Positions 6,318-18,580 of a stretch of 64,000 nt of DNA are shown here, in pieces. The DNA is from Candidatus Omnitrophota bacterium (GTDB taxonomy: Bacteria > Omnitrophota > Gorgyraeia > B26-G9 > JBDRCZ01). The notes below the pieces were generated by a model. It was not told the origin of the DNA and did no database searches. It was given only the letters and a program-made list of their open reading frames with translations. The stretch lies in the NCBI GenBank assembly GCA_043821285.1, contig JBDRCZ010000051.1, positions 2,199 through 66,198 on the forward strand, written 5' to 3'. Position 1 is the first letter of the stretch, and the number at the start of each line of letters is the position of its first letter. A program made the translations under genes and the position numbers.

Positions 6318-6941
6318 TTAATTTTTGATATTATCATAGAATATAGAGAATTTCTCACGAGCCTTGTTCTTTGTAAACTGCCAAGAGATTGTAATCTTTT
6401 TTTGGTTCCGTTGTTTTGTCCAAGGATAAACTTCATCGGCTAATTTTTTTATGTTTGCGATACGCCGGTCAAGACACTGCTTTGATAGCGCCGACAACTC
6501 AATCTCGGCCATATTCAGCCAGCTGGCTTTCTTGGGAGTATAGGCCATTTCAAAGCGTTGCGATAACACAAAGGTCTCAGGCGCGTCAAAAAGTTCGTAA
6601 AACGAAGAAGGATTATGCGTGTTAAGATTATCCTGAACCAAAATAATCTTATCGGCATCGGGATAATGTGACGCTACATCTTTCATAAAATCAGCATAAT
6701 CTTTCTTAGTCTTGCGTTCTGTGACTTTAACAATACGCTTACCGGCTAAAGGTTCAACAGCCATAAGCACAGCACATGTTCCGTTGCGCTCATAATGATA
6801 GTCCTGACGCTCAACGCATCCTGTTTTCATGGGAATTGGCATCATAACATCACCCAACAACTGACAGGGGCGTTCGTCAAAACAGACAACTGGCCTTTTC
6901 GGATTATAAGGTTGTTCATAAATGTCCAAAACCTGCTCCAT
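6318..6941 (-). pseudogene. IS630 transposase, C-terminal DDE fragment
   Basis: DDE_3-like motifs. It lacks its own N-terminal DNA-binding domain. Confidence 0.7.
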
Positions 6942-7120
6942 CCGCCAGAGATAATCGGCGGTGATGGTTGTAACACACCATTGTTTCTTTAGGTGAGGCT
7001 TAAGTTCGTTTTTTTAAAGTTCTCTCAATGGTTTTATAAGAAATGTTATTAACAAAATTTAACTTGGAATTCTCCGCCCCTTGGGGCGTGGAATGGCGAA
7101 GTTATAAAAAAAGTTCCTTA

Positions 7121-7558
7121 TTATCGGCGAAGCGTAGCGAAGTCGACGTGATGCCCCGCTCCCTTGGGGCGGGGAGAGTTCATTTCAACGACTTTATCGG
7201 CTAAAAGACGCAGACTCCACCTGCAGTGTTCTTGGGGAGCTTTTGAACATGCCAGGGCTGTAATCTGTGCCAGTTGCTTACCGCTGAACTTATTGGGGGC
7301 GCCAGGCCGAGGCTGTTCATATATTGCTGCATTAATTCCTTCTTTTGTATATCGCTGGCGTACTTGGCGAACGGTATTTCGGACTAATCCCAGCGCTTTG
7401 ATGATTCCGCTGTCAGTTTCGCCCTTATCCGCTAACAGTAATATTCGGCACCGAGTTAATGTGCGTGCTTTTTCTTTACCTTTTACCAAAGACCATGAGC
7501 TAGGCTTAAGGGAACAGAGCAATCTTTCAGCAGTCCCTTGAAGGTGTAGAAGACCCAA
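7121..7558 (-). pseudogene. IS630 transposase, N-terminal HTH fragment
   Basis: Transposase HTH_Tnp_IS630-like segment (LLLADKGETDSGIIKALGLVRNTVRQVRQRYTKEG). Confidence 0.65.
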
Positions 7559-7991
7559 GACTTCTTCTTACCATCTTTGCTCGTGGAGGTAAAAACCCAA
7601 CACTTATGCGGATAATGTTTTTTGATGAGTTTCACCAGCTCATCCTGCTGGCTCCAGCAGTGTTTCCGCTTTAGCGGATGGTAAAAGAAGATGTTACGAT
7701 TGGACTTTAATTCACCAATGAAGGGCAGTTTTTTATGGGAGAGAACAAACTTAAGGAATTCAGAGGACTGAGCATACTAGGCACCAATGACCAGGGAAGA
7801 GAATTTTATTTTTCTATGTAAGGCATTATCGACTAATATTCGGGCAAGATCGAGCTTACTTTTAAAATCTACATCCTCTTTGCCAAATAAGAACTCCTCT
7901 GCGGGGAGATAAGATTTAAAGTTTATCGGGAAGCGTTTGGTTTTGGAGGCGAAGGCAGAGAAGACAGCAACATTACAGATTTCTTCACGAT

Positions 7992-8363
7992 TTAAGACAC
8001 CACAGTGTTGACGTTTAGCGCCGGCGTAGCTTTAGCAAAAGGCTTAGGAGAAGAAGTATCATCGATAACTAAGACGCCGGAGGAAGTAGCAGAAGTAGTT
8101 CTTTGATGTTCAATAATTTTTAACCTTATATTGTTAAGATCATTGCTACTCCATTTTGCTTCAGATAAGAAGTACTGACAAGCATGATAGTTGATTGGGG
8201 TTTTAGAGGCGAGGGCATAAAGGGAATTTCTCTTGTAGTCTTTAAACAAAGCATAGATAAGGAAGGAGAAAACGATAAATTGTTTTTTTGAGAAGGCAGG
8301 TTTAAAACGAAATAAGAAATTATTGATTACCGAAATAGTGAGATTAAAAATACCCATATCCAC
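7992..8363 (-). pseudogene. IS701/IS4-like transposase, N-terminal fragment; the remainder is decayed
   Basis: The N-terminal motif ACQYFLSEAKWSSNDLN resembles the IS701-family HxFLS(D/E)SPW box. No intact downstream DDE ORF lies between 7560 and 7990. Confidence 0.5.
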
Positions 8364-8565
8364 CTCCTGTTGTGTGTTACGGTAGTTTAGTTACAACTAT
8401 ATACCATAGCAGGAGTTGTGGATATTGTTAAGGGAAAAATTAACGTAACACATTGAAATTACATAAGTTATTAGTTTTCACGACTTACGTTAAAAGATTT
8501 TTTGAAAAAGCTTAAATTTTAACAAAGTACTAGAAGTACAGAAGGTACCACAGCTTATTTCCTAA

Positions 8566-8913
8566 GGGATTGAATGGAAAAAATCCTTATCTGAAATAAA
8601 AGATATAATAAAAACGGTATCGGTTTTTTCCAATACCGAAGGTGGAAGAATGCTAATTGGATTATCGGAAACAGGCACTGTTGCTGGTGTAGAAATTGGC
8701 AAAGGCACAATAGAAAACATTACCAATCTAATTTCACAGCATACTGAACCTAAAATCCATCCACGAATTATTGTAAAAACAACTGGCGGTAAGGATATCA
8801 TTATAATTGACGTAACAAAATCACATGACAGCCCTGTTTTAGCTGACGGAATTTCTTATATACGAGTTGGTAAGTCAAGCATGAAAATGTCGAAGCACGG
8901 AGAAAAACTTTAA
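8566..8913 (+). pseudogene. AlbA_2 (Schlafen-like, ATP-dependent DNA-binding) domain fragment, truncated at both ends
   Basis: The in-frame stretch SEIKDIIKTVSVFSNTEGGRMLIGLSETGTVAGVEIG matches the AlbA_2 N-terminal consensus. It has no start codon upstream (stop at 8563) and ends after about 115 codons. Confidence 0.5.
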
Positions 8914-9157
8914 TTGCTTTTTTTAAGAACAAATCAGATAAATTGCATGTATTAATTACTACGGCGTATTAATAAAACTGTTTCAATACACAATACACAA
9001 TACTCAATACAATCTTCTAAACGACACGGCGGGCAGGCGATACAAAAAAATAAAATAAAATTATCACACAGAGGCACAGGGCACACGGAGAAAAACGTTT
9101 GAACTACGTATTGCGGATTTTGTGTAAAAACAGATAAGAAGAGAATAAAAGGAAAAA

Positions 9158-10480
9158 ATGCTATTAAAAGTATGGGTAGCAATTATATTAGTTATGACAA
9201 TTGTGGCAAGTACGGTTTTTTGTGCTGAAAGGATAGATGTTAGCCAATTAGAAGAGCAGAGCGAGATTTATTTTAGCCGGGATGACTATGATGGGTTTAT
9301 AGAGTATTTAAACAGCATAGATATAACAAAGGAAAACATATTAGCTGCCTATCGTAACTATTATCTGGCATTAACCTATATGAAAAAAATAGAATATTTG
9401 GACAAAAGAGAGGATTGGGAACGTTTTTATAAAGTCAAAGGTAAATATTGCAAAGAGGTTTCTAATCTTACTATACAGTTTTCATCATTGTCCGCATCTG
9501 AGGAATTAATTATTGATTTTTTATATCTAAATTGGGCTATCCATGAAAAAGCCGAATATCGAGAATATGCCGCTCAAGCATTTACGAAACTAAAGAAAAG
9601 ATTATTTGACTATGCAATTAGTACCGGTGATTATAAAAAACTTAAAGAAATAGCTGATCGAATAGAGTCAGAAATTGGTGGGAATTTTTCTTCGAAATTT
9701 TTTCAGAAATATATTATGCAGCTTGTTAAAGTGGATGATTATAATAAGGTATTTGCAATAATATTTTCTTTTTCCAAAGAACGGTTTGAAAAGTCCGACT
9801 TTACTGCTTCAAGTTTTGCAGATGAGAAATTATTGGAATTGTCACAACAAATTTATGATATAGATAAACAGATTAGTTTAGCAAATAGTATCGCAGAAAA
9901 GTATTTAGATCGCAATGAATTTTATTATTATGATTCATTTTATAGGCAGTACTTAACTTTACTCTTAAAAAAAGGGAAGGAAGAAGAATTCTATAATGCT
10001 GTACAAAAGGCTATTGATGTATTTGATAGTTCACCGACAAGAAATTCCCAACTGGCAAGAATATATTATAGTATGCTTTTAAATCACACCCCCAAAGAAT
10101 CAGTCTCTTTTACTGTTCTTTATGCCTCAGCTCGTGCTTCGTTGAGGTCAGGAGAATTTGAGGAAGCAATAGGGGAATTTGGGGAAATTATAGAACTTTT
10201 CCCTTCGCACAAAAATATTGCCGATTGCTACTTTCAGATTGCAAACGCTTATTTTTATCTTGAAAAATATGAAAAGGCTGCTGAAAATTTATCAATTATT
10301 GTTGAAAAATTCCCTGAAACAAGTATAGCGGAAGAGGCATTATATTTACTTGGTATTGCAAAAATAAAAGAGAAAAAATATTCCGATGCCTTACACAACT
10401 TTGAAAATTTTTTAATAATATATCCCGAAAGTGTTAGAAATGATAAAGTAATGAAAAAGGTTATGGAGATAAAAAAGTGA
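9158..10480 (+). CDS. Secreted TPR-like repeat protein
   Basis: N-terminal signal peptide. C-terminal TPR-like helices (YFQIANAYFYLEKYEKAAENL...). Confidence 0.55.
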   Translation: MLLKVWVAIILVMTIVASTVFCAERIDVSQLEEQSEIYFSRDDYDGFIEYLNSIDITKENILAAYRNYYLALTYMKKIEYLDKREDWERFYKVKGKYCKEVSNLTIQFSSLSASEELIIDFLYLNWAIHEKAEYREYAAQAFTKLKKRLFDYAISTGDYKKLKEIADRIESEIGGNFSSKFFQKYIMQLVKVDDYNKVFAIIFSFSKERFEKSDFTASSFADEKLLELSQQIYDIDKQISLANSIAEKYLDRNEFYYYDSFYRQYLTLLLKKGKEEEFYNAVQKAIDVFDSSPTRNSQLARIYYSMLLNHTPKESVSFTVLYASARASLRSGEFEEAIGEFGEIIELFPSHKNIADCYFQIANAYFYLEKYEKAAENLSIIVEKFPETSIAEEALYLLGIAKIKEKKYSDALHNFENFLIIYPESVRNDKVMKKVMEIKK

Positions 10481-11283
10481 AGAAAACAAAATTTTTTACA
10501 AAAAAACTGCCTTTAATATTTTTTCTTACATTAATATTAAACTCTGCGTTTATTTTAGATGTTTTATCAATCGATGAGAGTGTTAGTAGAGATATTGTAA
10601 AGGTTATAAACAGTTATTGCAATGCGTGGATTAGAGGCAATGCAAAAGAAATGTATCAATTTCTAATCCGGCCGACCGTGTTAACAGAAGAAGAATACGT
10701 GAAAGACTGGGAAGGGAAGCTCGATGATGGTAAACGTCCAATAAAAATCATTAATATTAATGACGTTAAGTATATAAATAATACAAGCTATAGTATTGTT
10801 GTAACCTTAGAAGTTCCTCCAAGCTGGTATAAACCATGTAATGCAGCGCAATTTGAATACTTTTTAGAACTTGGCATAGATGACGAATGGGGCATAACAG
10901 GTAGTCGCGAACTTGTTGTTAAAAAAGAAGTAAATATTGCAGAATTAAAAGAAATTGTTCGTAAAGAGATAGAGTTTTGGATGGCAGGAGATGTGCACGC
11001 GATGTATCAATTAGGTACCAAACCGATTACCTTACCGGAAGAGCAATTTGTAAAAGATATGGCAGAAGGGCTTAAACCTGAAAATCGTCCAAAAAAGATA
11101 ATATCCATAAGTGAACCAGAACATGTGAAAGGAAATATGTACAGTGTAATTGCGAAATTGGCGGTGCCTGAGAGTTGGATTAAGCCGGATAATGCAGCAA
11201 AAATTAAGTATTTTTTATTACCGGGAGCAGATAATAAATGGGGACTAACCGGTCAAACAGAGCTATCATTGTCTCTAAAATAA
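10477..11283 (+). CDS. Secreted protein with a tandemly duplicated ~110-aa domain
   Basis: GTG start overlapping the upstream stop (GTGA). Signal peptide. Two internal repeats: EMYQFLIRPTVLTEEEYVKD...WGITGSRELVVKKE versus AMYQLGTKPITLPEEQFVKD...WGLTGQTELSLSLK. Confidence 0.55.
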   Translation: MKKTKFFTKKLPLIFFLTLILNSAFILDVLSIDESVSRDIVKVINSYCNAWIRGNAKEMYQFLIRPTVLTEEEYVKDWEGKLDDGKRPIKIININDVKYINNTSYSIVVTLEVPPSWYKPCNAAQFEYFLELGIDDEWGITGSRELVVKKEVNIAELKEIVRKEIEFWMAGDVHAMYQLGTKPITLPEEQFVKDMAEGLKPENRPKKIISISEPEHVKGNMYSVIAKLAVPESWIKPDNAAKIKYFLLPGADNKWGLTGQTELSLSLK

Positions 11284-11297
11284 TGCAAAAAATATAA

Positions 11298-11540
11298 ATG
11301 AAGAATAATAACAAAATTACAGAAACGGTTATTTTTATTTTAGCATTTATTTTTATTCAGATAATACAGTTAAATAAAAGTTTTCAAGATTTATTTACTC
11401 AATATTTGTCTAAAAATAAAGATAGAAGTAAACAAGAAACCATTGAGTCAATTCGTGTTATTTTAACTTTGTCTGGAGTAAATGCTGCGATAAGTAAAAG
11501 CAGTGGTTGCGGCATGGCTGCAGATTGTATTGGATGTTAG
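11298..11540 (+). CDS. Small membrane-anchored Cys-rich protein; C-terminus GCGMAADCIGC
   Basis: 80-aa ORF with an N-terminal TM helix. It overlaps the start of the SPASM gene by 34 nt in another frame. Coding status is uncertain. Confidence 0.3.
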   Translation: MKNNNKITETVIFILAFIFIQIIQLNKSFQDLFTQYLSKNKDRSKQETIESIRVILTLSGVNAAISKSSGCGMAADCIGC

Positions 11541-12325
11541 TAGAAAACTCAATAAAAAGATTAATATCTATCGGAAAAACTCCTGGGATTAGAGTAACTC
11601 TTACTGATCATAACCAGAATAGGATTGTAGAATCCATAGATTACTTAAAAAAGTTAGGAATACGTTCAGCTGCCTTTATTCCGATGGAAATACCTTTTTA
11701 TTTAGAAGACAATATAGCTCAGCTGGCAACGGATCCTGAGATAGTATATAATGAATATATTAGGGCTTATGAATATACATACAGATTATATTGTAATGAG
11801 GGGTATGCCTTCCATCTTTTGCCGATAACCATGATTTTAGAAGGAGTGATGTCCGGAGGAAGGTTTCAAGGTTGTGGGATGGGAAGAGGTTTTTTTTCGA
11901 TAGGTACTAGTGGAAATATACATTCATGTCAAAGAGTGAGAACAGATGAATTTTATATAGGAAATATATACGATAATGATATTTTTTATAAACTTGATAA
12001 TGTGCCGGAAAGTAAAAAAGGAAATAGCGTTTTGTCAGCATTGCTTAGTGAACGAACTACTGATGTAAAAGGCAATTCTTGTGCTAATTGTGAAGTTTTA
12101 GCGTTTTGTGCGGGAGGTTGTGCTGCCGCTGCCTGGGCGCAGTTTAAAGATAAGGACATAGGGTCCCCTAATATTAATGACTCGATGTACCATGAAAAAT
12201 GTTATTATACAAAGAAATTGATAAAAAGGCTTTTTTGGGATTATATTGAACGTCCAAAGAAAGATGACAAATATTTCAAATATCTTTCAACTATTGCGCC
12301 AATAAGACGAAATTTTTGGATGTAA
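11507..12325 (+). pseudogene. Radical SAM / SPASM-domain maturase, 5'-truncated (no CxxxCxxC cluster motif)
   Basis: Complete SPASM/twitch signature CGMGRGFFSIGTSGNIHSC ... CANCEVLAFCAGGC ... HEKC. The upstream rSAM-barrel-like segment is present but the N-terminal ~100 aa with the SAM-cluster cysteines is absent. The frame is closed by a stop at 11495. Confidence 0.6.
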
Positions 12326-12465
12326 ACAACGTTTTTTTATCATTAAACAGTTCCGCTATACGGTTATGCAGTTCAAAACATTTAATGTTTATTGGATGAG
12401 ATTTACATGAACTGATTGCACAGTTAAATGCACAAAAGGAACTGTTAGGACAAACATTTGCAGAA

Positions 12466-12560
12466 ATGGATAAAAAAAATTCCGGTGCTGCGGAGCAGTA
12501 TTAGCTTGGCATAATGCTCTGTAGCCTTGCTGGAGAATGGTCAAACTGCAGAAAATTATT
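12466..12560 (+). repeat. ~95-bp intergenic repeat family (GGATAAAAAATTCCGGTGCTGC...CTGTAGnCTTGCT...GGTCAA)
   Basis: Near-identical copy at 21906-22000 and a partial copy at 63648-63708. Confidence 0.7.
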
Positions 12561-14146: not shown

Positions 14147-14220
14147 TGCCCGGTAGTGTAATGGTAACACATCAGATTTTGGTTCTGAGTTTCGAGGTTC
14201 GAATCCTCGCCGGGCAGCCA
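14147..14220 (+). tRNA. tRNA-Gln (anticodon UUG), CCA encoded
   Basis: Cloverleaf folds by hand: acceptor TGCCCGG/CCGGGCA, anticodon stem UCAGA/UCUGA with loop UUUUGGU, T-arm CGAGG-TTCGAAT-CCTCG, discriminator G plus CCA. Confidence 0.85.
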
Positions 14221-14477: not shown

Positions 14478-14500
14478 GTGCGGAATCCTCGCAGGGCAGC
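14478..14500 (+). repeat. Direct repeat of the tRNA-Gln 3' end (att-like)
   Basis: ggaatcctcgcagggcagcca versus cgaatcctcgccgggcagcca at 14200-14220. Confidence 0.6.
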
Positions 14501-14587
14501 CAATTTTTGGCGATGCCAAAAATTGGCAGAGTCCGCCTAAGGCGGACGGTCTAATGTTCTATTGTTTATGGCTCAAAAAGGTGATTT

Positions 14588-14716
14588 ATGCCTTTCATGT
14601 TCGAAAACCTTGAAGTTTATCAGAAAGCAATCGGAAATCTTACAGAAAGGTTTACAAAAGGCAATTATTATCTTATATGTGAGAATAAGATAGCAGGTAA
14701 AGCGAAGGAATTATGA
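14588..14716 (+). pseudogene. Four-helix-bundle (23S rRNA IVS) family protein, truncated to 42 aa
   Basis: MPFMFENLEVYQKAIGNLTERF matches the family N-terminus. It stops after 42 codons, and its TGA overlaps the ATG of the methyltransferase (ATGA). Confidence 0.45.
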
Positions 14717-15855
14717 AAACGAGCGAACAGGCTATAGATTTGTTTGTAGATTTAGAAAAAGAACAGTATGACTGGAAGAAAGATATTATTATTAATAAGT
14801 CTAAACTGTTGGAAAAGATCAAAGAAATCACACAGATAGATGCGCCCATTCAACTGAAAAGAAATATAGCTTTTATTAAATCAGTAATTAATTATCCTAA
14901 AAATGATAGAGATGGTTTAGTTAATATAGATCAGAATGGCGATACTACGGTTTTGAAGAAAGGGACTCTCCTTGAAGAGTTAAATCAAATTGAAGAAGCC
15001 CAAACAGTAGAAAGAGCAAGATATTATCTCCATCGGTTAAGAAAGGGCATAAGTGAAATAAAAACTAGTAAAATTAATGACATAAATCTCAATCGCTGGA
15101 AGGAGTATCAAAATATTTTAACTGATAGTTTATGGATTTTAGAGAGAAGAGATGATTCGGGTGTTCATGCGGGCTGGTACTGGGGTAATTTTATCCCGCA
15201 AATACCACATCAGTTAATGATGCGGTATACAAAAAAAGGCGATTGGGTTCTTGATCCATTTTTAGGTAGTGGCACGACTTTAATTGAGTGTCGGCATTTA
15301 GGCAGAAACGGGATTGGGGTTGAATTAAATCCAGAAACCGCGAGAAAAGCGAAAGATTTAATCGAAAGAGAAAACAACAGTGAAAATATTACTACTGAAG
15401 TTGGAGCCGGAGATAGCAGAAAAATAAATTTTAAAGAACTTTTAGATAAACAAGGAGTTAAGCAAGTTCAACTTATTATTATGCATCCGCCATATCACGA
15501 CATAATTAAGTTTAGTAGAGAAACAGAAGATTTATCTAACGCCGCAACCACGGAAGATTTCATAGAAATGTTTGATGAGGTTTTAGATAACACTGCCCCG
15601 CTTTTAGAGAAAGGCAGATATCTTGGGATAGTTATCGGAGATAAATATTATAAAGGTACTTGGATCCCCTTATGTTTTTATATTATGAATGAAGTTTTAA
15701 AAAAGGATTTTACCCTTAAAAGTATAATTGTTAAAAACTTTGAAGAAACAAGAGGAAAGAGGAATCAAAGAGAGTTATGGCGCTATCGAGCATTGGTGGG
15801 CGGTTTTTATATTTTCAAACACGAGTATATTTTATTATTTAAAAAAGGGAAGTAG
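14713..15855 (+). CDS. DNA N6-adenine/N4-cytosine methyltransferase (type II R-M, M subunit)
   Basis: Motif I DPFLGSGTT and motif IV HPPY (N6_N4_Mtase family). Low-GC coding style relative to its neighbours. Confidence 0.8.
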   Translation: MKTSEQAIDLFVDLEKEQYDWKKDIIINKSKLLEKIKEITQIDAPIQLKRNIAFIKSVINYPKNDRDGLVNIDQNGDTTVLKKGTLLEELNQIEEAQTVERARYYLHRLRKGISEIKTSKINDINLNRWKEYQNILTDSLWILERRDDSGVHAGWYWGNFIPQIPHQLMMRYTKKGDWVLDPFLGSGTTLIECRHLGRNGIGVELNPETARKAKDLIERENNSENITTEVGAGDSRKINFKELLDKQGVKQVQLIIMHPPYHDIIKFSRETEDLSNAATTEDFIEMFDEVLDNTAPLLEKGRYLGIVIGDKYYKGTWIPLCFYIMNEVLKKDFTLKSIIVKNFEETRGKRNQRELWRYRALVGGFYIFKHEYILLFKKGK

Positions 15856-15858
15856 TAG

Positions 15859-17013
15859 ATGACAACGCATGTTTTTATTGTTGATTTTGTAACTTTTAAA
15901 TATCACTTAGAATACTTATTTGCTGGTACCGGAGCAAAAGATAATGTCATTGATTTTAATGCAAAATCCAGCACGTCGTTAAAGCCTATGACTGAAAATA
16001 ATTTAGTAGGAATGATTGCGGATTCGCAAAGAATAAGAACAGGCGATTATATAATTTTCTATTTACAACAAGATATGTCCGAAGGCATTTATGAAGGCAA
16101 GTTTTACGGTATATTTAAGGCTAAAGAAGACCTGTCGTTTTTAGACAACAATGATAAGAATCAATTTCTCAAAAAAGAATTAATAAAGTCATTAACTTTC
16201 AGAACTCTTATAGAACCCTATGAAGTTTATGCTGTAGGTGTTACAGAATGGGAAGCGTTAGATGAAATAAAGTTTATACAGTCACCTAACCAGATGCTTT
16301 GGAGTCTTATTTATAGAAAATTAAAAGTGAATAGAGGCAACACGATGATAACCATTTATGAAAGCGATAGACTTTTTAAGCTATTGCGCGATAAAAATAA
16401 TAGAAAAACGCTCGATAGTCAAAATCTTACATATGACAATGTAACACGAGAAATAAAGCCAAGTAATGACAAAAATGTTTATTTGGGGAGAAAAGTAGCG
16501 ATAGACATCTTAACTCGATTAGTAAGAAAGCATAATGAAGGAAAAGCATTTGAGATGCATTTACAAGCTTATGTAATTCAGAATATTGACAGGAATAAAA
16601 ATAAAACTTTAGACGTCTGTTTGCTTGATAGCTTATCACTGGAATGGATTGGTAATGAGGTTTCTTGCGGCGTAGGAATGCAAAGAATAGACGTCATGCT
16701 CTCGGTTTTTAAGGAGAATTCAAGAATAATTATCCCTATAGAATTAAAAGCGGTCGAAGCAGATGAAAAAAATATTTCCCAGATTCAAAGATATGTCGAC
16801 TGGCTCGAGCAATATTACATTCCTAACAGGATCAGTGATACACAACCGGTATTAATTTCAAAGAAGATTGAAAACAAAACAACAGCTTCATATAAAAATA
16901 TTATCAAAACTTTCGAAGAGTTTAATAAAAAGAATACCAGATGCTTGCCTTTGAAATTTATAGAGTATGAGTTAGCCAGTAATAATTTATATTTTAAAGA
17001 AGAAAAGTATTAA
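15859..17013 (+). CDS. Putative cognate type II restriction endonuclease
   Basis: Lies 4 nt downstream of the MTase. Candidate PD-(D/E)xK core RIDVMLSVFKENSRIIIPIELK. No other recognisable domain. Confidence 0.45.
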   Translation: MTTHVFIVDFVTFKYHLEYLFAGTGAKDNVIDFNAKSSTSLKPMTENNLVGMIADSQRIRTGDYIIFYLQQDMSEGIYEGKFYGIFKAKEDLSFLDNNDKNQFLKKELIKSLTFRTLIEPYEVYAVGVTEWEALDEIKFIQSPNQMLWSLIYRKLKVNRGNTMITIYESDRLFKLLRDKNNRKTLDSQNLTYDNVTREIKPSNDKNVYLGRKVAIDILTRLVRKHNEGKAFEMHLQAYVIQNIDRNKNKTLDVCLLDSLSLEWIGNEVSCGVGMQRIDVMLSVFKENSRIIIPIELKAVEADEKNISQIQRYVDWLEQYYIPNRISDTQPVLISKKIENKTTASYKNIIKTFEEFNKKNTRCLPLKFIEYELASNNLYFKEEKY

Positions 17014-17206
17014 GATTGGTTGATAATTAGGTTGATGGTTTTAACCCCGTGGTTTACCTAAATATAAATATCCCTTTGCCACGGTTGACTATAATTTTAT
17101 GACTAATTGGCAACATTGATTCTTTGATTTTCGGTTGATGACAACTTTCTTTCTTTTGGTTCTACCTTTTCTTTTTAAGAAAAGGTAGAGCAAAATATCC
17201 GCCTAA

Positions 17207-17279
17207 TAAACTGGCGGATTAAATTCCGACAAATAATTTACATCGCCTATAGCTCTGTAAATTATGTCGTTATTTAAGG
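17207..17279 (+). repeat. Structured intergenic element, copy B (upstream of glmU)
   Basis: Hairpin atccgcc-taataaact-ggcggat, then taaattccgac, then a second hairpin cgacaaataatttaca.../tgtaaattatgtcg, then ttatttaagg. Confidence 0.7.
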
Positions 17280-17314
17280 TAGATGGCAAAATTAGTGCCG
17301 AAGGCAATAATTTT

Positions 17315-18580
17315 ATGAAAAACATTACCGCGATAATATTAGCTGCAGGAGAAGGTACGCGGATGTATTCACAGCGGCCGAAAATTTTGCATAAGATTTG
17401 CGGTCAGCCGATGATTGATTATGTTGTAAATGCGGTCAGGGGTATTGGGATTAAAAAGATTATTATTGTTGTCGGACATAAATCTCAACTGGTAGAAGAC
17501 CACCTTAGTAAAGATGTCATCACGGTAAAACAGAAAAAACTGTTAGGTACCGGTGATGCGGTAATGAGCGCAAAATCCAATATCGGGCTGGATGATGAGC
17601 TGCTTATTCTTTATGGCGATACCCCGCTGGTAACCAGTGAGACCTTGAAAGAGCTTCTAAAAAAACACCGTGAGACCGCAGCAGCGTGCACTCTTTTAAC
17701 CGCGGTAATAAAAAATCCTTCCGGCTATGGACGGGTTTTACGTGATGATAGCGGAAAAATCCAGCGCATTGTTGAAGAAAATGATGCAACCTTGTTTCAA
17801 AAGGTTGTGGAAGAAATAAACGTAGGGGTATATTTCTATAAAGCCAAAGACCTGTTTGAAGCATTAGCAAAAATCCGGCCGTTGAATAAAAAAAATGAGT
17901 ATTATTTAACCGATACAATTTCTTTACTGATTAAAAAAAATAAACAGATTGCCTCGATACGAACAGAAAATAATGATGAAATTTTAGGGATTAATTCCCG
18001 GCGTGAACTCTCAGTTGCCAGCCGGATTATTAAGATGTGCTTGATTGAAAAAATAGTTGATTGTGGGGTAACCGTAGTTGACCCGGATAATACCTATATT
18101 GAAGTTAATGTAACAGCTTCGAAAGATACGGTTATTTATCCATTTACCTACATCGAACAAGACGTTACTATTGGTAAAAATTGTATCATCGGGCCGTTTG
18201 TTAGAATTAGGCGGGGGACGACGATTGGTAATGACACCATAGTCGGTAATTTCGTTGAGCTCAACCGTTCGGAAATTGGCAATCAATGCCGGATAAAACA
18301 TCAAAGCTATTTAGGCGATACGTTATTAGAGGATGAAGTGAATATTGGTGCGGGAACAGTGGTCGCTAATTATGACGGAAAGAATAAACATAAGACGAAG
18401 ATAAAAAAAGGTGCCTTTATTGGCTGCGGGACGATTCTTGTTGCTCCGGTGACCATAGGTAAATCTGCGGTTACCGGTGCGGGTACCGTAGTGCCGAAAA
18501 ACAAGGATGTTGCGGATAACACCGTGGTTGTTGGTGTGCCGGCACGGACGCTAAAGAAGAAGGAAAATGGCAATGCGTAA
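17315..18580 (+). CDS. glmU: Bifunctional GlcNAc-1-P uridyltransferase / glucosamine-1-P acetyltransferase
   Basis: N-terminal AIILAAGEGTRM nucleotidyltransferase motif and C-terminal left-handed beta-helix hexapeptide repeats. ATG at 17315 is preferred over the ORF-track start at 17264. Confidence 0.9.
   Translation: MKNITAIILAAGEGTRMYSQRPKILHKICGQPMIDYVVNAVRGIGIKKIIIVVGHKSQLVEDHLSKDVITVKQKKLLGTGDAVMSAKSNIGLDDELLILYGDTPLVTSETLKELLKKHRETAAACTLLTAVIKNPSGYGRVLRDDSGKIQRIVEENDATLFQKVVEEINVGVYFYKAKDLFEALAKIRPLNKKNEYYLTDTISLLIKKNKQIASIRTENNDEILGINSRRELSVASRIIKMCLIEKIVDCGVTVVDPDNTYIEVNVTASKDTVIYPFTYIEQDVTIGKNCIIGPFVRIRRGTTIGNDTIVGNFVELNRSEIGNQCRIKHQSYLGDTLLEDEVNIGAGTVVANYDGKNKHKTKIKKGAFIGCGTILVAPVTIGKSAVTGAGTVVPKNKDVADNTVVVGVPARTLKKKENGNA

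What the first reader, a model, noticed from the sequence alone, without database searches (positions are those of the whole stretch)
11298..12325. Decayed RiPP-like cassette: small Cys-rich membrane peptide overlapping a 5'-truncated radical-SAM/SPASM maturase
The 272-aa ORF has an unmistakable SPASM/twitch domain: CGMGRGFFSIGTSGNIHSC, then CANCEVLAFCAGGC, then a trailing Cys, plus the distal half of a radical-SAM barrel. It has no CxxxCxxC SAM-cluster motif, and its frame is closed by a stop only four codons upstream of the TTG start. An 80-aa ORF with an N-terminal TM helix and a C-terminal GCGMAADCIGC tail ends inside the maturase start, in another frame. The geometry (peptide, then SPASM enzyme, last in a four-gene secreted-protein operon with translational coupling at 10477) resembles a ranthipeptide/sactipeptide-type precursor-maturase pair that has lost the enzyme N-terminus. 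Alternatively the N-terminal half may be encoded elsewhere.
Basis: partly seen in the sequence, partly recalled or inferred. Interest (0 to 1): 0.5.

Follow-up and report, generated by a model that had tools for sequence, protein, structure and literature searches.

The report
Deletion-killed radical-SAM peptide-crosslinking cassette
This is the broken remnant of a rare gene cassette in which a radical-SAM enzyme modifies a membrane-anchored cysteine-rich protein. One roughly 1 kb deletion removed the end of the substrate gene and the catalytic half of the enzyme gene, so the locus is an ordinary dead gene pair that points to an unstudied enzyme family.

Summary
The ORF at 11507/11534-12325 carries a complete seven-Cys SPASM domain (TIGR04085, 47.5 bits against a cut-off of 27). 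It has no CxxxCxxC motif and no Pfam Radical_SAM match.

Its relatives are 472-596 aa radical-SAM/SPASM enzymes, 28-52% identical. Only profile positions 289-551 of 556 are present here, and the missing half is found in no frame upstream and nowhere else in the window.

Homology begins at 11537, next to the stop codon of the 80-aa ORF (11538-11540). That stop lies inside maturase-derived codons, which fits a single deletion junction at about 11530-11540.

An Auribacterota locus and another metagenome locus keep the intact arrangement: TPR protein, NTF2-like repeat protein, a 160-179 aa membrane-anchored Cys-rich protein, and the radical-SAM enzyme. The window's 80-aa ORF matches the first 80 residues of those Cys-rich proteins in architecture, with a TM helix at residues 6-26 and the first core Cys at residue 71. 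Pairwise sequence similarity is not significant.

The surviving half shows no further decay.

Verdict: a dead cassette of an uncharacterised, rare PapB/QhpD-like clade, lying in a low-GC stretch next to IS fragments. Assembly error cannot be excluded without reads.

The parts
9158..10480 (+). Gene 1 of the cassette: a 440-aa TPR protein with an N-terminal signal-like hydrophobic segment. It appears intact.
   Evidence: Pfam TPR_6, TPR_2 and YfiO hits. TPR proteins sit at the same position in L007 (E 3e-4) and L016 (E 0.002). NCBI names it 'tetratricopeptide repeat protein'.
10477..11283 (+). Gene 2: a 268-aa secreted protein made of two ~130-aa repeats, possibly NTF2-like. It appears intact, and its GTG start overlaps the TGA stop of gene 1.
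   Evidence: It is homologous to the 255-aa protein in the Auribacterota cassette (E 1e-7). It is also homologous to the repeats of the 584-aa protein directly upstream of radical-SAM enzyme P0003 in L005 (E 9e-8). That 584-aa protein has faint NTF2-like Pfam hits below threshold.
11298..11540 (+). Gene 3 remnant: an 80-aa ORF. It is read as the N-terminal signal-anchor, the linker and the first ~10 residues of the Cys-rich region of the maturase substrate.
   Evidence: It sits at the same position, and has the same architecture, as the 160-aa (L007) and 179-aa (L016) Cys-rich proteins: a TM helix at residues 6-26 and the first core Cys at residue 71 in all three. The chance of such an open frame is 22/20,000. 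Pairwise similarity is not significant (E 0.27; E 1.1).
11316..11372 (+). Hydrophobic TM or signal-anchor segment of the 80-aa ORF (ITETVIFILAFIFIQIIQL).
   Evidence: Kyte-Doolittle 19-residue mean of 2.19.
11505..11537 (+). Cys tail GCGMAADCIGC, the surviving start of the Cys-rich core.
   Evidence: The GC...CIG motif recurs as a tandem repeat (GCAECIGQGCVECIG...) in the 286-aa protein of L005. A CIxC motif occurs in the 66-aa precursor upstream of P0155.
11530..11540 (.). Inferred deletion junction, resolved to about +/-6 nt. An estimated 0.9-1.2 kb is missing.
   Evidence: tblastn and the family HMM begin to match at 11537-11540 (LVENS...), and nothing matches upstream. The closest relative, P0157, reads ...NLVESGLEKLI against the window's MLVENSIKRLI. 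The stop TAG at 11538-11540 of the small ORF is made from the maturase L-V codons (tTA GTA).
11534..12325 (+). Gene 4 remnant: the 263-aa C-terminal half of a radical-SAM/SPASM maturase (272 aa if started at TTG 11507).
   Evidence: E 6e-66 to 1e-31 against 530-582 aa relatives, always matching their C-terminal halves. Family HMM positions 289-551 of 556 are matched. PapB profile positions 141-319 of 330 are matched.
11873..12202 (+). SPASM domain with all seven cysteines (CX12GX4C, CX2CX5CX3C, trailing C).
   Evidence: TIGR04085 scores 47.5 bits against a cut-off of 27. The seven Cys are invariant columns of alignment A1.

Best explanation
The locus is a four-gene cassette inactivated by one internal deletion. 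The genes are a TPR protein, an NTF2-like repeat protein, a membrane-anchored Cys-rich substrate protein, and a radical-SAM/SPASM maturase.

**How the intact form would work (inferred).** The cytoplasmic maturase uses its CxxxCxxC [4Fe-4S] cluster and SAM to generate a 5'-deoxyadenosyl radical. It then cross-links cysteines of the Cys-rich region to side-chain carbons of nearby residues, most likely Asp or Glu, forming thioethers as PapB and QhpD do. The two SPASM auxiliary clusters assist in this. The cross-linked domain, held by its N-terminal signal-anchor, would then be presented outside the cytoplasm, where the secreted TPR and repeat proteins would act with it.

**What happened here.** A deletion of about 0.9-1.2 kb, with its junction at about 11530-11540, removed three things: the rest of the Cys-rich core, the intergenic spacer, and the first ~255-310 codons of the maturase. 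Those codons encode the N-terminal extension, the radical-SAM cluster loop, the GGxP SAM-binding motif, and most of the barrel.

**What is left.** An 80-aa stub remains, with a TM helix and GCGMAADCIGC. It terminates on stop codons supplied out of frame by the maturase sequence. A 263-aa ORF also remains, encoding the last two beta-alpha units plus the SPASM domain. Without the SAM cluster no radical chemistry is possible, so the pair is non-functional.

The remnant shows no further decay, so the deletion is probably recent. The cassette lies in a low-GC stretch beside IS and other gene fragments, which suggests it was acquired horizontally and is now being lost.
For: **Shown**
- The SPASM domain is complete, and the radical-SAM motif and domain are absent.
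- All relatives read from intact contigs are 472-596 aa and carry CNLxCxYC and FGGQP motifs. The window matches only their C-terminal halves.
- The nearest cluster representative, P0002 (346 aa), is a contig-edge fragment of the 530-aa P0155.
- The family HMM matches only positions 289-551. No other hit was found in six frames of 8400-12400, and tblastn found nothing elsewhere in the window.
- The homology boundary at 11537 coincides with the small ORF's stop at 11538-11540.
- Synteny: L007 reads TPR, 255 aa, 160-aa TM/Cys-rich protein, then 579-aa radical-SAM enzyme. L016 reads TPR, 495 aa, 179-aa TM/Cys protein, with the radical-SAM gene alongside. L005 reads 286-aa TM/Cys-repeat protein, 584-aa repeat protein, then radical-SAM enzyme. 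The closest relative, P0157, has a 178-aa gene directly upstream.
- The 268-aa protein is homologous to the L007 and L005 repeat proteins.
- TM position and first-core-Cys position (residue 71) are identical in the window, L007 and L016 proteins.
- The remnant deviates at 3 of 24 family-invariant columns, against 0-6 for intact members.
- GC is 0.325 at 8-12 kb against a window mean of about 0.40. IS630-like, DDE_5 and AlbA_2 fragments lie at 6318-8913.

**Inferred**
- The chemistry. The best NCBIfam similarities of the full-length relatives are PapB and QhpD.
- Related cassettes carry CYVKD[PT] repeats, that is CX3D. PapB makes Cys-Asp/Glu thioethers (PMC9413430 abstract).
Against: - The 80-aa ORF has no statistically significant sequence similarity to any putative substrate (E 0.27, 1.1). 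Its assignment rests on position, architecture and a short motif.
- The junction cannot be placed to the nucleotide. The small ORF's natural stop could in principle have lain exactly there.
- The remnant ORF is fully open over 263 codons in AT-rich DNA and keeps all conserved residues. This also fits purifying selection on a functional fragment. Its ATG overlaps the upstream stop in a coupling-like arrangement.
- The source is a MAG contig and no reads were available, so a mis-join cannot be excluded.
- The closest relative with DNA (P0155) has a 66-aa soluble precursor with no Asp or Glu in its core. The Cys-Asp/Glu chemistry is therefore not general for the clade.
- Nothing in this clade has been tested experimentally.
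Confidence: 0.7

Rival explanations
1. Assembly artefact. The real genome carries an intact substrate gene and a full-length maturase. The metagenome assembler collapsed or mis-joined the contig at about 11535.
For: The window is from a MAG. Cys-rich substrate genes in relatives are internally repetitive, and such sequence is prone to assembly problems. The remnant shows no decay at all, as expected if the gene is really intact in vivo.
Against: Collapse of a repeat within the substrate gene would not join it to the middle of the next gene. No repeats flank the junction. The junction lies in the middle of a 78-kb contig with conserved gene order on both sides. Other truncated genes nearby (DDE_5 and AlbA_2 fragments) show that the region does accumulate real deletions.
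Confidence: 0.1
2. A functional stand-alone pair. The 263-aa SPASM-only protein is an Fe-S protein in its own right, for example an electron carrier or a peptide-binding partner. It would be translationally coupled to a short membrane peptide with a Cys tail.
For: The ORF is intact and the seven Cys ligands and family-invariant residues are preserved. The ATG at 11534 overlaps the upstream stop. At least one unrelated 250-260 aa SPASM-half protein (P0103/P0161) recurs on several contigs, including a 171-kb one. Such fragments are therefore not unique.
Against: No truncated member of this clade was found among 1.84 billion representative proteins; the closer relatives whose contigs were read are full length, and the one short representative checked is a contig-edge fragment. 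The fragment starts in the middle of the barrel, leaving two beta-alpha units that would be exposed without the rest. The AlphaFold model is poor (mean pLDDT 55.6). The start coincides exactly with a deletion junction that also cuts the neighbouring gene.
Confidence: 0.08
3. Only the maturase is truncated. The 80-aa ORF would then be a complete small precursor with a short core (GCGMAADCIGC), like the 66-aa precursor upstream of P0155. The deletion would have started just after its stop.
For: The maturase fragment is closer in sequence to P0155 and P0157 (44-52% identity) than to P0005 (36%). P0155 has a short 66-aa precursor with a CIxC motif.
Against: The stop of the small ORF is formed by maturase-derived L-V codons, so a natural stop would have had to sit exactly at the break. 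The P0155 precursor has no TM helix, whereas the window ORF shares its TM-plus-linker architecture with the 160-179 aa proteins. P0157, the closest relative at 52% identity, is preceded by a 178-aa gene.
Confidence: 0.12
4. Split enzyme. The N-terminal radical-SAM half is encoded elsewhere in the genome, and the two halves assemble.
For: Nothing positive. It simply cannot be excluded beyond the window.
Against: No candidate lies in the 64-kb window. A profile search of 5.8 billion proteins returned no N-terminal-only Omnitrophota protein, although that search also missed known family members, so the negative is weak. To my knowledge, no radical-SAM/SPASM enzyme split within the barrel has been described.
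Confidence: 0.03

Closest known systems
PapB / freyrasin-type ranthipeptide maturases (NCBIfam NF047865)
   Same: PapB is the best-scoring curated family for both the fragment and its full-length relatives. It is a radical-SAM enzyme with a SPASM domain acting on Cys-rich substrates. Sister cassettes encode CYVKD[PT] repeats, that is CX3D motifs like those PapB cross-links (PMC9413430).
   Different: Scores are far below the family cut-off: 53 bits for the fragment and 93-135 bits for relatives, against 340. The relatives are 200-250 aa longer, with an N-terminal extension. Substrates here are 160-286 aa membrane-anchored proteins with TPR and repeat-protein partners. The window copy lacks the catalytic half.
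QhpD, the quinohemoprotein amine dehydrogenase maturation radical-SAM enzyme (TIGR03906)
   Same: QhpD is the second-best family for relative P0155 (125 bits). From my own knowledge, QhpD forms Cys-to-Asp/Glu thioethers inside a protein subunit (QhpC) that is afterwards exported. That is an analogy for cross-linking a protein destined for the envelope.
   Different: Scores are well below the cut-off of 453. There are no qhp genes nearby. The substrate is unrelated to QhpC.
CteB (PDB 5WGG) and anSME (PDB 4K37), structurally characterised radical-SAM/SPASM enzymes
   Same: These are the closest solved structures to the family profile (E 7e-29 and 3e-28). The domain order is the same: N-terminal domain, radical-SAM barrel, SPASM.
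   Different: The window fragment begins at about CteB residue 235, after the radical-SAM cluster and the SAM-binding motifs. Identity is low.
SCIFF/ScfB thioether maturases (TIGR03974, NF040492)
   Same: They have a SPASM domain and Cys-rich small substrates, and give weak profile hits.
   Different: The score is 40.8 bits against a cut-off of 425. The precursor has no SCIFF motif.

Membership tests
Radical-SAM/SPASM peptide maturases (functional enzyme) | SPASM domain with the seven-Cys pattern CX9-15GX4C ... CX2CX5CX3C ... C | tested here: met
   TIGR04085 scores 47.5 bits against a cut-off of 27. The motifs can be read directly in the sequence.
Radical-SAM/SPASM peptide maturases (functional enzyme) | CxxxCxxC motif binding the SAM-cleaving [4Fe-4S] cluster | tested here: not met
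   The motif is absent from the ORF and from every frame upstream. Relatives carry CNLxCxYC.
Radical-SAM/SPASM peptide maturases (functional enzyme) | Radical_SAM (PF04055) core domain | tested here: not met
   There is no hit at E<=1. Relatives hit at E 1e-9 to 3e-13.
PapB family ranthipeptide maturase (NF047865) | Score at or above the curated equivalog cut-off of 340 bits | tested here: not met
   The fragment scores 53.3 bits. Full-length relatives score 93-135 bits.
QhpD (TIGR03906) | Score at or above the cut-off of 453 bits | tested here: not met
   The fragment scores 34.7 bits. P0155 scores 125 bits.
SCIFF maturase ScfB (TIGR03974) | Score at or above the cut-off of 425 bits | tested here: not met
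   40.8 bits.
Pseudo-SAM/SPASM proteins (TIGR04347) | Score at or above the cut-off of 525 bits | tested here: not met
   25.6 bits, over the SPASM part only.
Uncharacterised clade P0157/P0155/P0003-P0007 (472-596 aa) | C-terminal ~260 aa homologous over the full length | tested here: met
   E 6e-66 to 2e-18. Family HMM score 274.5 bits over positions 289-551. Identity is 52% to P0157.
Uncharacterised clade P0157/P0155/P0003-P0007 (472-596 aa) | N-terminal extension plus radical-SAM core (profile positions 1-288) | tested here: not met
   Absent from all frames. This is the deleted part.
Uncharacterised clade P0157/P0155/P0003-P0007 (472-596 aa) | Adjacent gene for a Cys-rich substrate | tested here: met
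   The 80-aa ORF with its Cys tail lies directly upstream. Cys-rich genes are adjacent in L001, L003, L005, L007, L010, L012 and L016.
Four-gene cassette: TPR, repeat protein, TM/Cys-rich protein, radical-SAM enzyme | Homologous repeat protein and TPR protein upstream on the same strand | tested here: met
   E 1e-7 and 9e-8 for the repeat protein. E 3e-4 and 0.002 for the TPR protein.
Four-gene cassette: TPR, repeat protein, TM/Cys-rich protein, radical-SAM enzyme | Sequence homology of the TM/Cys-rich protein | tested here: inconclusive
   BLASTP E 0.27 and 1.1. The TM position and first-Cys position are identical.
Ranthipeptide-type chemistry (thioether to a non-alpha carbon) | Demonstrated Cys-to-side-chain-carbon thioether in the product | not testable with these tools
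   This needs mass spectrometry or NMR of a product made by an intact relative.

The most novel reading that the evidence does not exclude
The surviving pair may not be dead. On this reading, the 263-aa SPASM-only protein is a free-standing two-cluster Fe-S protein, translationally coupled to an 80-aa membrane peptide with a CX5CX2C tail. This would be a case of a maturase remnant being re-used, and a previously undescribed stand-alone use of the SPASM fold.
Probability: 0.07. Interest if true: 0.6.

Novelty: new variant of a known kind. Interest (0 to 1): 0.3.

Why it matters
The window's locus is a dead gene pair and changes nothing by itself. Its value is as a pointer.

- It leads to a very rare, uncharacterised clade of radical-SAM/SPASM enzymes. 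Fewer than ten members were found among 1.84 billion representative proteins, and none reaches any curated family cut-off.
- The apparent substrates are unusual: membrane-anchored proteins of 160-286 aa with 10-39 cysteines. They are encoded together with a TPR protein and an NTF2-like repeat protein.
- A sister group has CYVKD[PT]-repeat precursors and a second radical-SAM enzyme. One such cassette is in the cultured Afifella marina DSM 2698, which makes the chemistry experimentally accessible.
- The locus is also a clean example of how a single deletion produces an annotated 'SPASM domain-containing protein' and a 'hypothetical protein' that are really two gene stumps.

Tried and rejected
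1. **Frameshift hypothesis.** By eye, the 80-aa ORF seemed to align with the mid-barrel region of relatives (FQDLFTQYLSKNK against IDDELIQFVKKYK). That would have meant a frameshifted but continuous gene. I rejected it because the family HMM gives no hit to that frame even at E<=1000 with filters off.
2. **N-terminal half elsewhere in the window.** tblastn with eight relatives found nothing better than E 0.09.
3. **Programmed -1 frameshift fusing the two ORFs.** There is no slippery heptamer in the 11507-11540 overlap (read).
4. **Close relatives of the window proteins.** Word-indexed searches with the 272-aa and 268-aa proteins returned only the proteins themselves. The exact-protein contig look-up for P0001 found nothing.
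5. **Collection scans for more loci.** The first alignment was too diverse. The second found only four genome loci and one metagenome locus.
6. **Profile search for N-only fragments.** It returned only six proteins and missed known members, so it is a weak negative.
7. **Repeats or microhomology at the junction.** None were found.
8. **Promoters and terminators.** The scans were at background level.
9. **Rfam.** Only a tRNA was found.
10. **Structure prediction of the fragment.** Mean pLDDT was 55.6, with the SPASM part below 50. That is too poor for a fold search, so I ran none.
11. **Literature search for CYVKD.** It found nothing relevant.

Full report
**Source and observation.** The window is a contig of a Candidatus Omnitrophota MAG. 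The 263-aa product is annotated 'SPASM domain-containing protein', and the 80-aa, 268-aa and 440-aa ORFs carry locus tags ABH952_05800, ABH952_05795 and the preceding tag.

- The ORF from TTG 11507 (or ATG 11534) to 12325 contains CX12GX4C, CX2CX5CX3C and a trailing Cys.
- It has no CxxxCxxC motif.
- Its frame is closed four codons upstream of the TTG.
- The 80-aa ORF (11298-11540) has a strongly hydrophobic segment at residues 7-25. All three of its Cys lie in the last ten residues.

NCBIfam TIGR04085 (SPASM) scores 47.5 bits against a cut-off of 27, and no Radical_SAM domain is detected. An open frame of 80 or more codons arises in 0.1% of shuffles of that AT-rich spacer.

**What the large ORF is.** An exhaustive HMMER scan of 1.84 billion representative proteins found only about seven clear relatives.
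- P0002 (45% identical) is a contig-edge fragment of the 530-aa P0155.
- P0003-P0006 are 561-582 aa, P0007 is 472 aa, and P0157 (52% identical, the closest) is 565 aa.
- All have an N-terminal extension of about 100-150 aa, a CNLxCxYC radical-SAM motif, an FGGQP motif, and then the region homologous to the window ORF.

A profile of the family (556 positions) matches the window only at positions 289-551, at 274.5 bits. With all filters off, it finds nothing else in six frames of 8400-12400. tblastn finds no N-terminal half anywhere in the 64 kb. The Pfam Radical_SAM domain of P0155 spans residues 110-276, and the window fragment starts at about residue 255.

Against solved structures, the family is closest to CteB (5WGG) and anSME (4K37). 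The fragment begins at about CteB residue 235. It therefore retains roughly the last two beta-alpha units and the SPASM domain, and nothing that binds or cleaves SAM.

**The junction.** Homology starts at 11537 (L-V-E-N-S...). P0157 reads NLVESGLEKLI where the window reads MLVENSIKRLI. The 80-aa ORF ends with TGT TAG TAG at 11535-11543. Its stop codons are therefore the maturase's tTA GTA Gaa read out of frame. Upstream of 11534 the maturase frame shows no similarity to the Ser/Gly/Lys-rich segment that relatives have there.

The simplest reading is one deletion with its junction at 11530-11540. It fused the early Cys-rich region of the upstream gene, out of frame, to about codon 255-310 of the maturase. 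By comparison with L001 and L007, about 0.9-1.2 kb is missing.

**What the small ORF is.** Contigs encoding the relatives show Cys-rich genes next to the enzyme in every case examined.

| Locus | Enzyme | Arrangement |
|---|---|---|
| L007 (Auribacterota MAG) | P0005 | TPR protein, 255-aa protein, 160-aa protein, 579-aa radical-SAM enzyme |
| L016 | P0007 | TPR, 495 aa, 179-aa TM/Cys protein, beside the enzyme |
| L005 | P0003 | 286-aa TM protein with tandem GCAECIGQGCVECIG... repeats (39 Cys), 584-aa repeat protein, enzyme |
| no DNA held | P0157 | 178-aa gene directly upstream |
| L001 | P0155 | 66-aa precursor ending GCSRHCIQCHAAAHCIRCHVTRG |

The L007 160-aa protein has an N-terminal TM helix, then 20 Cys and 25 Asp/Glu in its last 90 residues.

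The window's 268-aa protein is homologous to the L007 255-aa protein (E 1e-7) and to the L005 584-aa protein (E 9e-8). The TPR proteins match weakly. The gene order in the window therefore equals that of L007.

The 80-aa ORF occupies the slot of the TM/Cys-rich gene. In the window ORF, the L007 protein and the L016 protein, the hydrophobic segment lies at residues 6-26 and the first core Cys is residue 71. The window tail, GC....CIG, echoes the L005 repeat unit.

Pairwise sequence similarity is not significant (E 0.27 and 1.1). The assignment is therefore architectural and positional, not statistical.

**State of the remnant.** The 263-aa ORF is uninterrupted and keeps all seven SPASM Cys. It deviates from family-invariant columns no more than intact members do: 3 of 24, against 0-6. 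Decay is thus limited to the deletion, which is either recent or followed by selection on the fragment.

The neighbourhood argues for ongoing loss:
- An IS630-like transposase lies in two ORFs (6318-6941 and 7121-7558).
- A DDE_5 fragment (7992-8363) and a 5'-truncated AlbA_2 fragment (8650-8913) lie just upstream.
- The 8-12 kb segment has the lowest GC of the window, 0.325 against about 0.40.

**Likely mechanism of the intact system (inferred).** Full-length relatives score best against PapB (93-135 bits) and then mostly against QhpD, anSME or DynA. All are far below the curated cut-offs, so the clade belongs to no described family.

PapB forms Cys-Asp/Glu thioethers (PMC9413430). From my own knowledge, QhpD does the same within a protein subunit that is later exported.

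Sister cassettes pair the enzyme with a second radical-SAM enzyme and with precursors made of CYVKD[PT] repeats, that is CX3D. These are P0004, P0006 and Afifella marina DSM 2698.

I therefore favour radical-SAM-dependent thioether cross-linking of the Cys-rich region in the cytoplasm, followed by membrane insertion or export. The secreted TPR and repeat proteins would act outside the cytoplasm. The P0155 precursor has no Asp or Glu in its core, so the acceptor residue is not uniform across the clade.

None of this can occur in the window copy.

**Rivals.**
- An assembly mis-join cannot be excluded without reads. It is not favoured, because no repeats flank the junction and real gene fragments lie nearby.
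- A functional SPASM-only protein is allowed by the intact ORF, by the ATG/stop overlap, and by the recurrence elsewhere of an unrelated 250-260 aa SPASM-half protein on long contigs. Against it, this clade shows no other truncated member, the fragment begins mid-barrel, and the structure model is poor.
- A split enzyme has no support.

**Verdict.** The locus is a single-deletion remnant of a four-gene cassette from a rare, uncharacterised PapB/QhpD-like radical-SAM/SPASM clade. As a locus it is ordinary genome decay. The family it points to is the more interesting object.

Noticed in passing
L003 10884-11039; L010 10744-10956; L012 about 8810-9058 (Afifella marina DSM 2698, NZ_FMVW01000002): The precursors consist of 5-8 tandem CYVKD[PT] repeats, that is CX3D. 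Each is encoded just downstream of a pair of radical-SAM genes: a 577-583 aa family member and a 325-338 aa second enzyme. No NCBIfam model matched, and a literature search for the motif found nothing. This looks like an undescribed RiPP family in a cultured organism.
   Followed up: partly
window 6318-6941 (-) and 7121-7558 (-): An IS630-like transposase is split into a DDE_3 ORF and a separate HTH ORF. It is either a frameshifted or decayed copy, or a case of programmed frameshifting.
   Followed up: partly
window 7992-8363 (-) and 8650-8913 (+): There are two more gene fragments here. One is a DDE_5 transposase N-terminal piece (profile positions 2-96 of 272). The other is a 5'-truncated AlbA_2/Schlafen-domain ORF (profile positions 36-118 of 118). 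Both indicate a deletion-prone region.
   Followed up: partly
window 8000-12500 and 14500-18000: These two segments have the lowest GC of the window (0.325 and 0.34-0.36, against about 0.40). The second holds ORFs at 14713-15855 and 15859-17013 that look by eye like a DNA methyltransferase and a restriction-enzyme partner. It lies next to a tRNA-Gln at 14147-14220.
   Followed up: no
P0103/P0161 (not in the window): A 250-260 aa protein consists of the distal barrel plus a SPASM domain and has no CxxxCxxC motif. It recurs on several metagenome contigs, including one of 171 kb. SPASM-half ORFs may therefore be a recurrent class, or a recurrent kind of remnant.
   Followed up: no
L005 5332-6192: This 286-aa protein has 39 cysteines in near-perfect GC[AV][EG]CIG[QST] and VCT[AEQ]CVE[GS][ND] tandem repeats after a TM helix. 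It is an extreme Cys-repeat protein with no Pfam match.
   Followed up: partly
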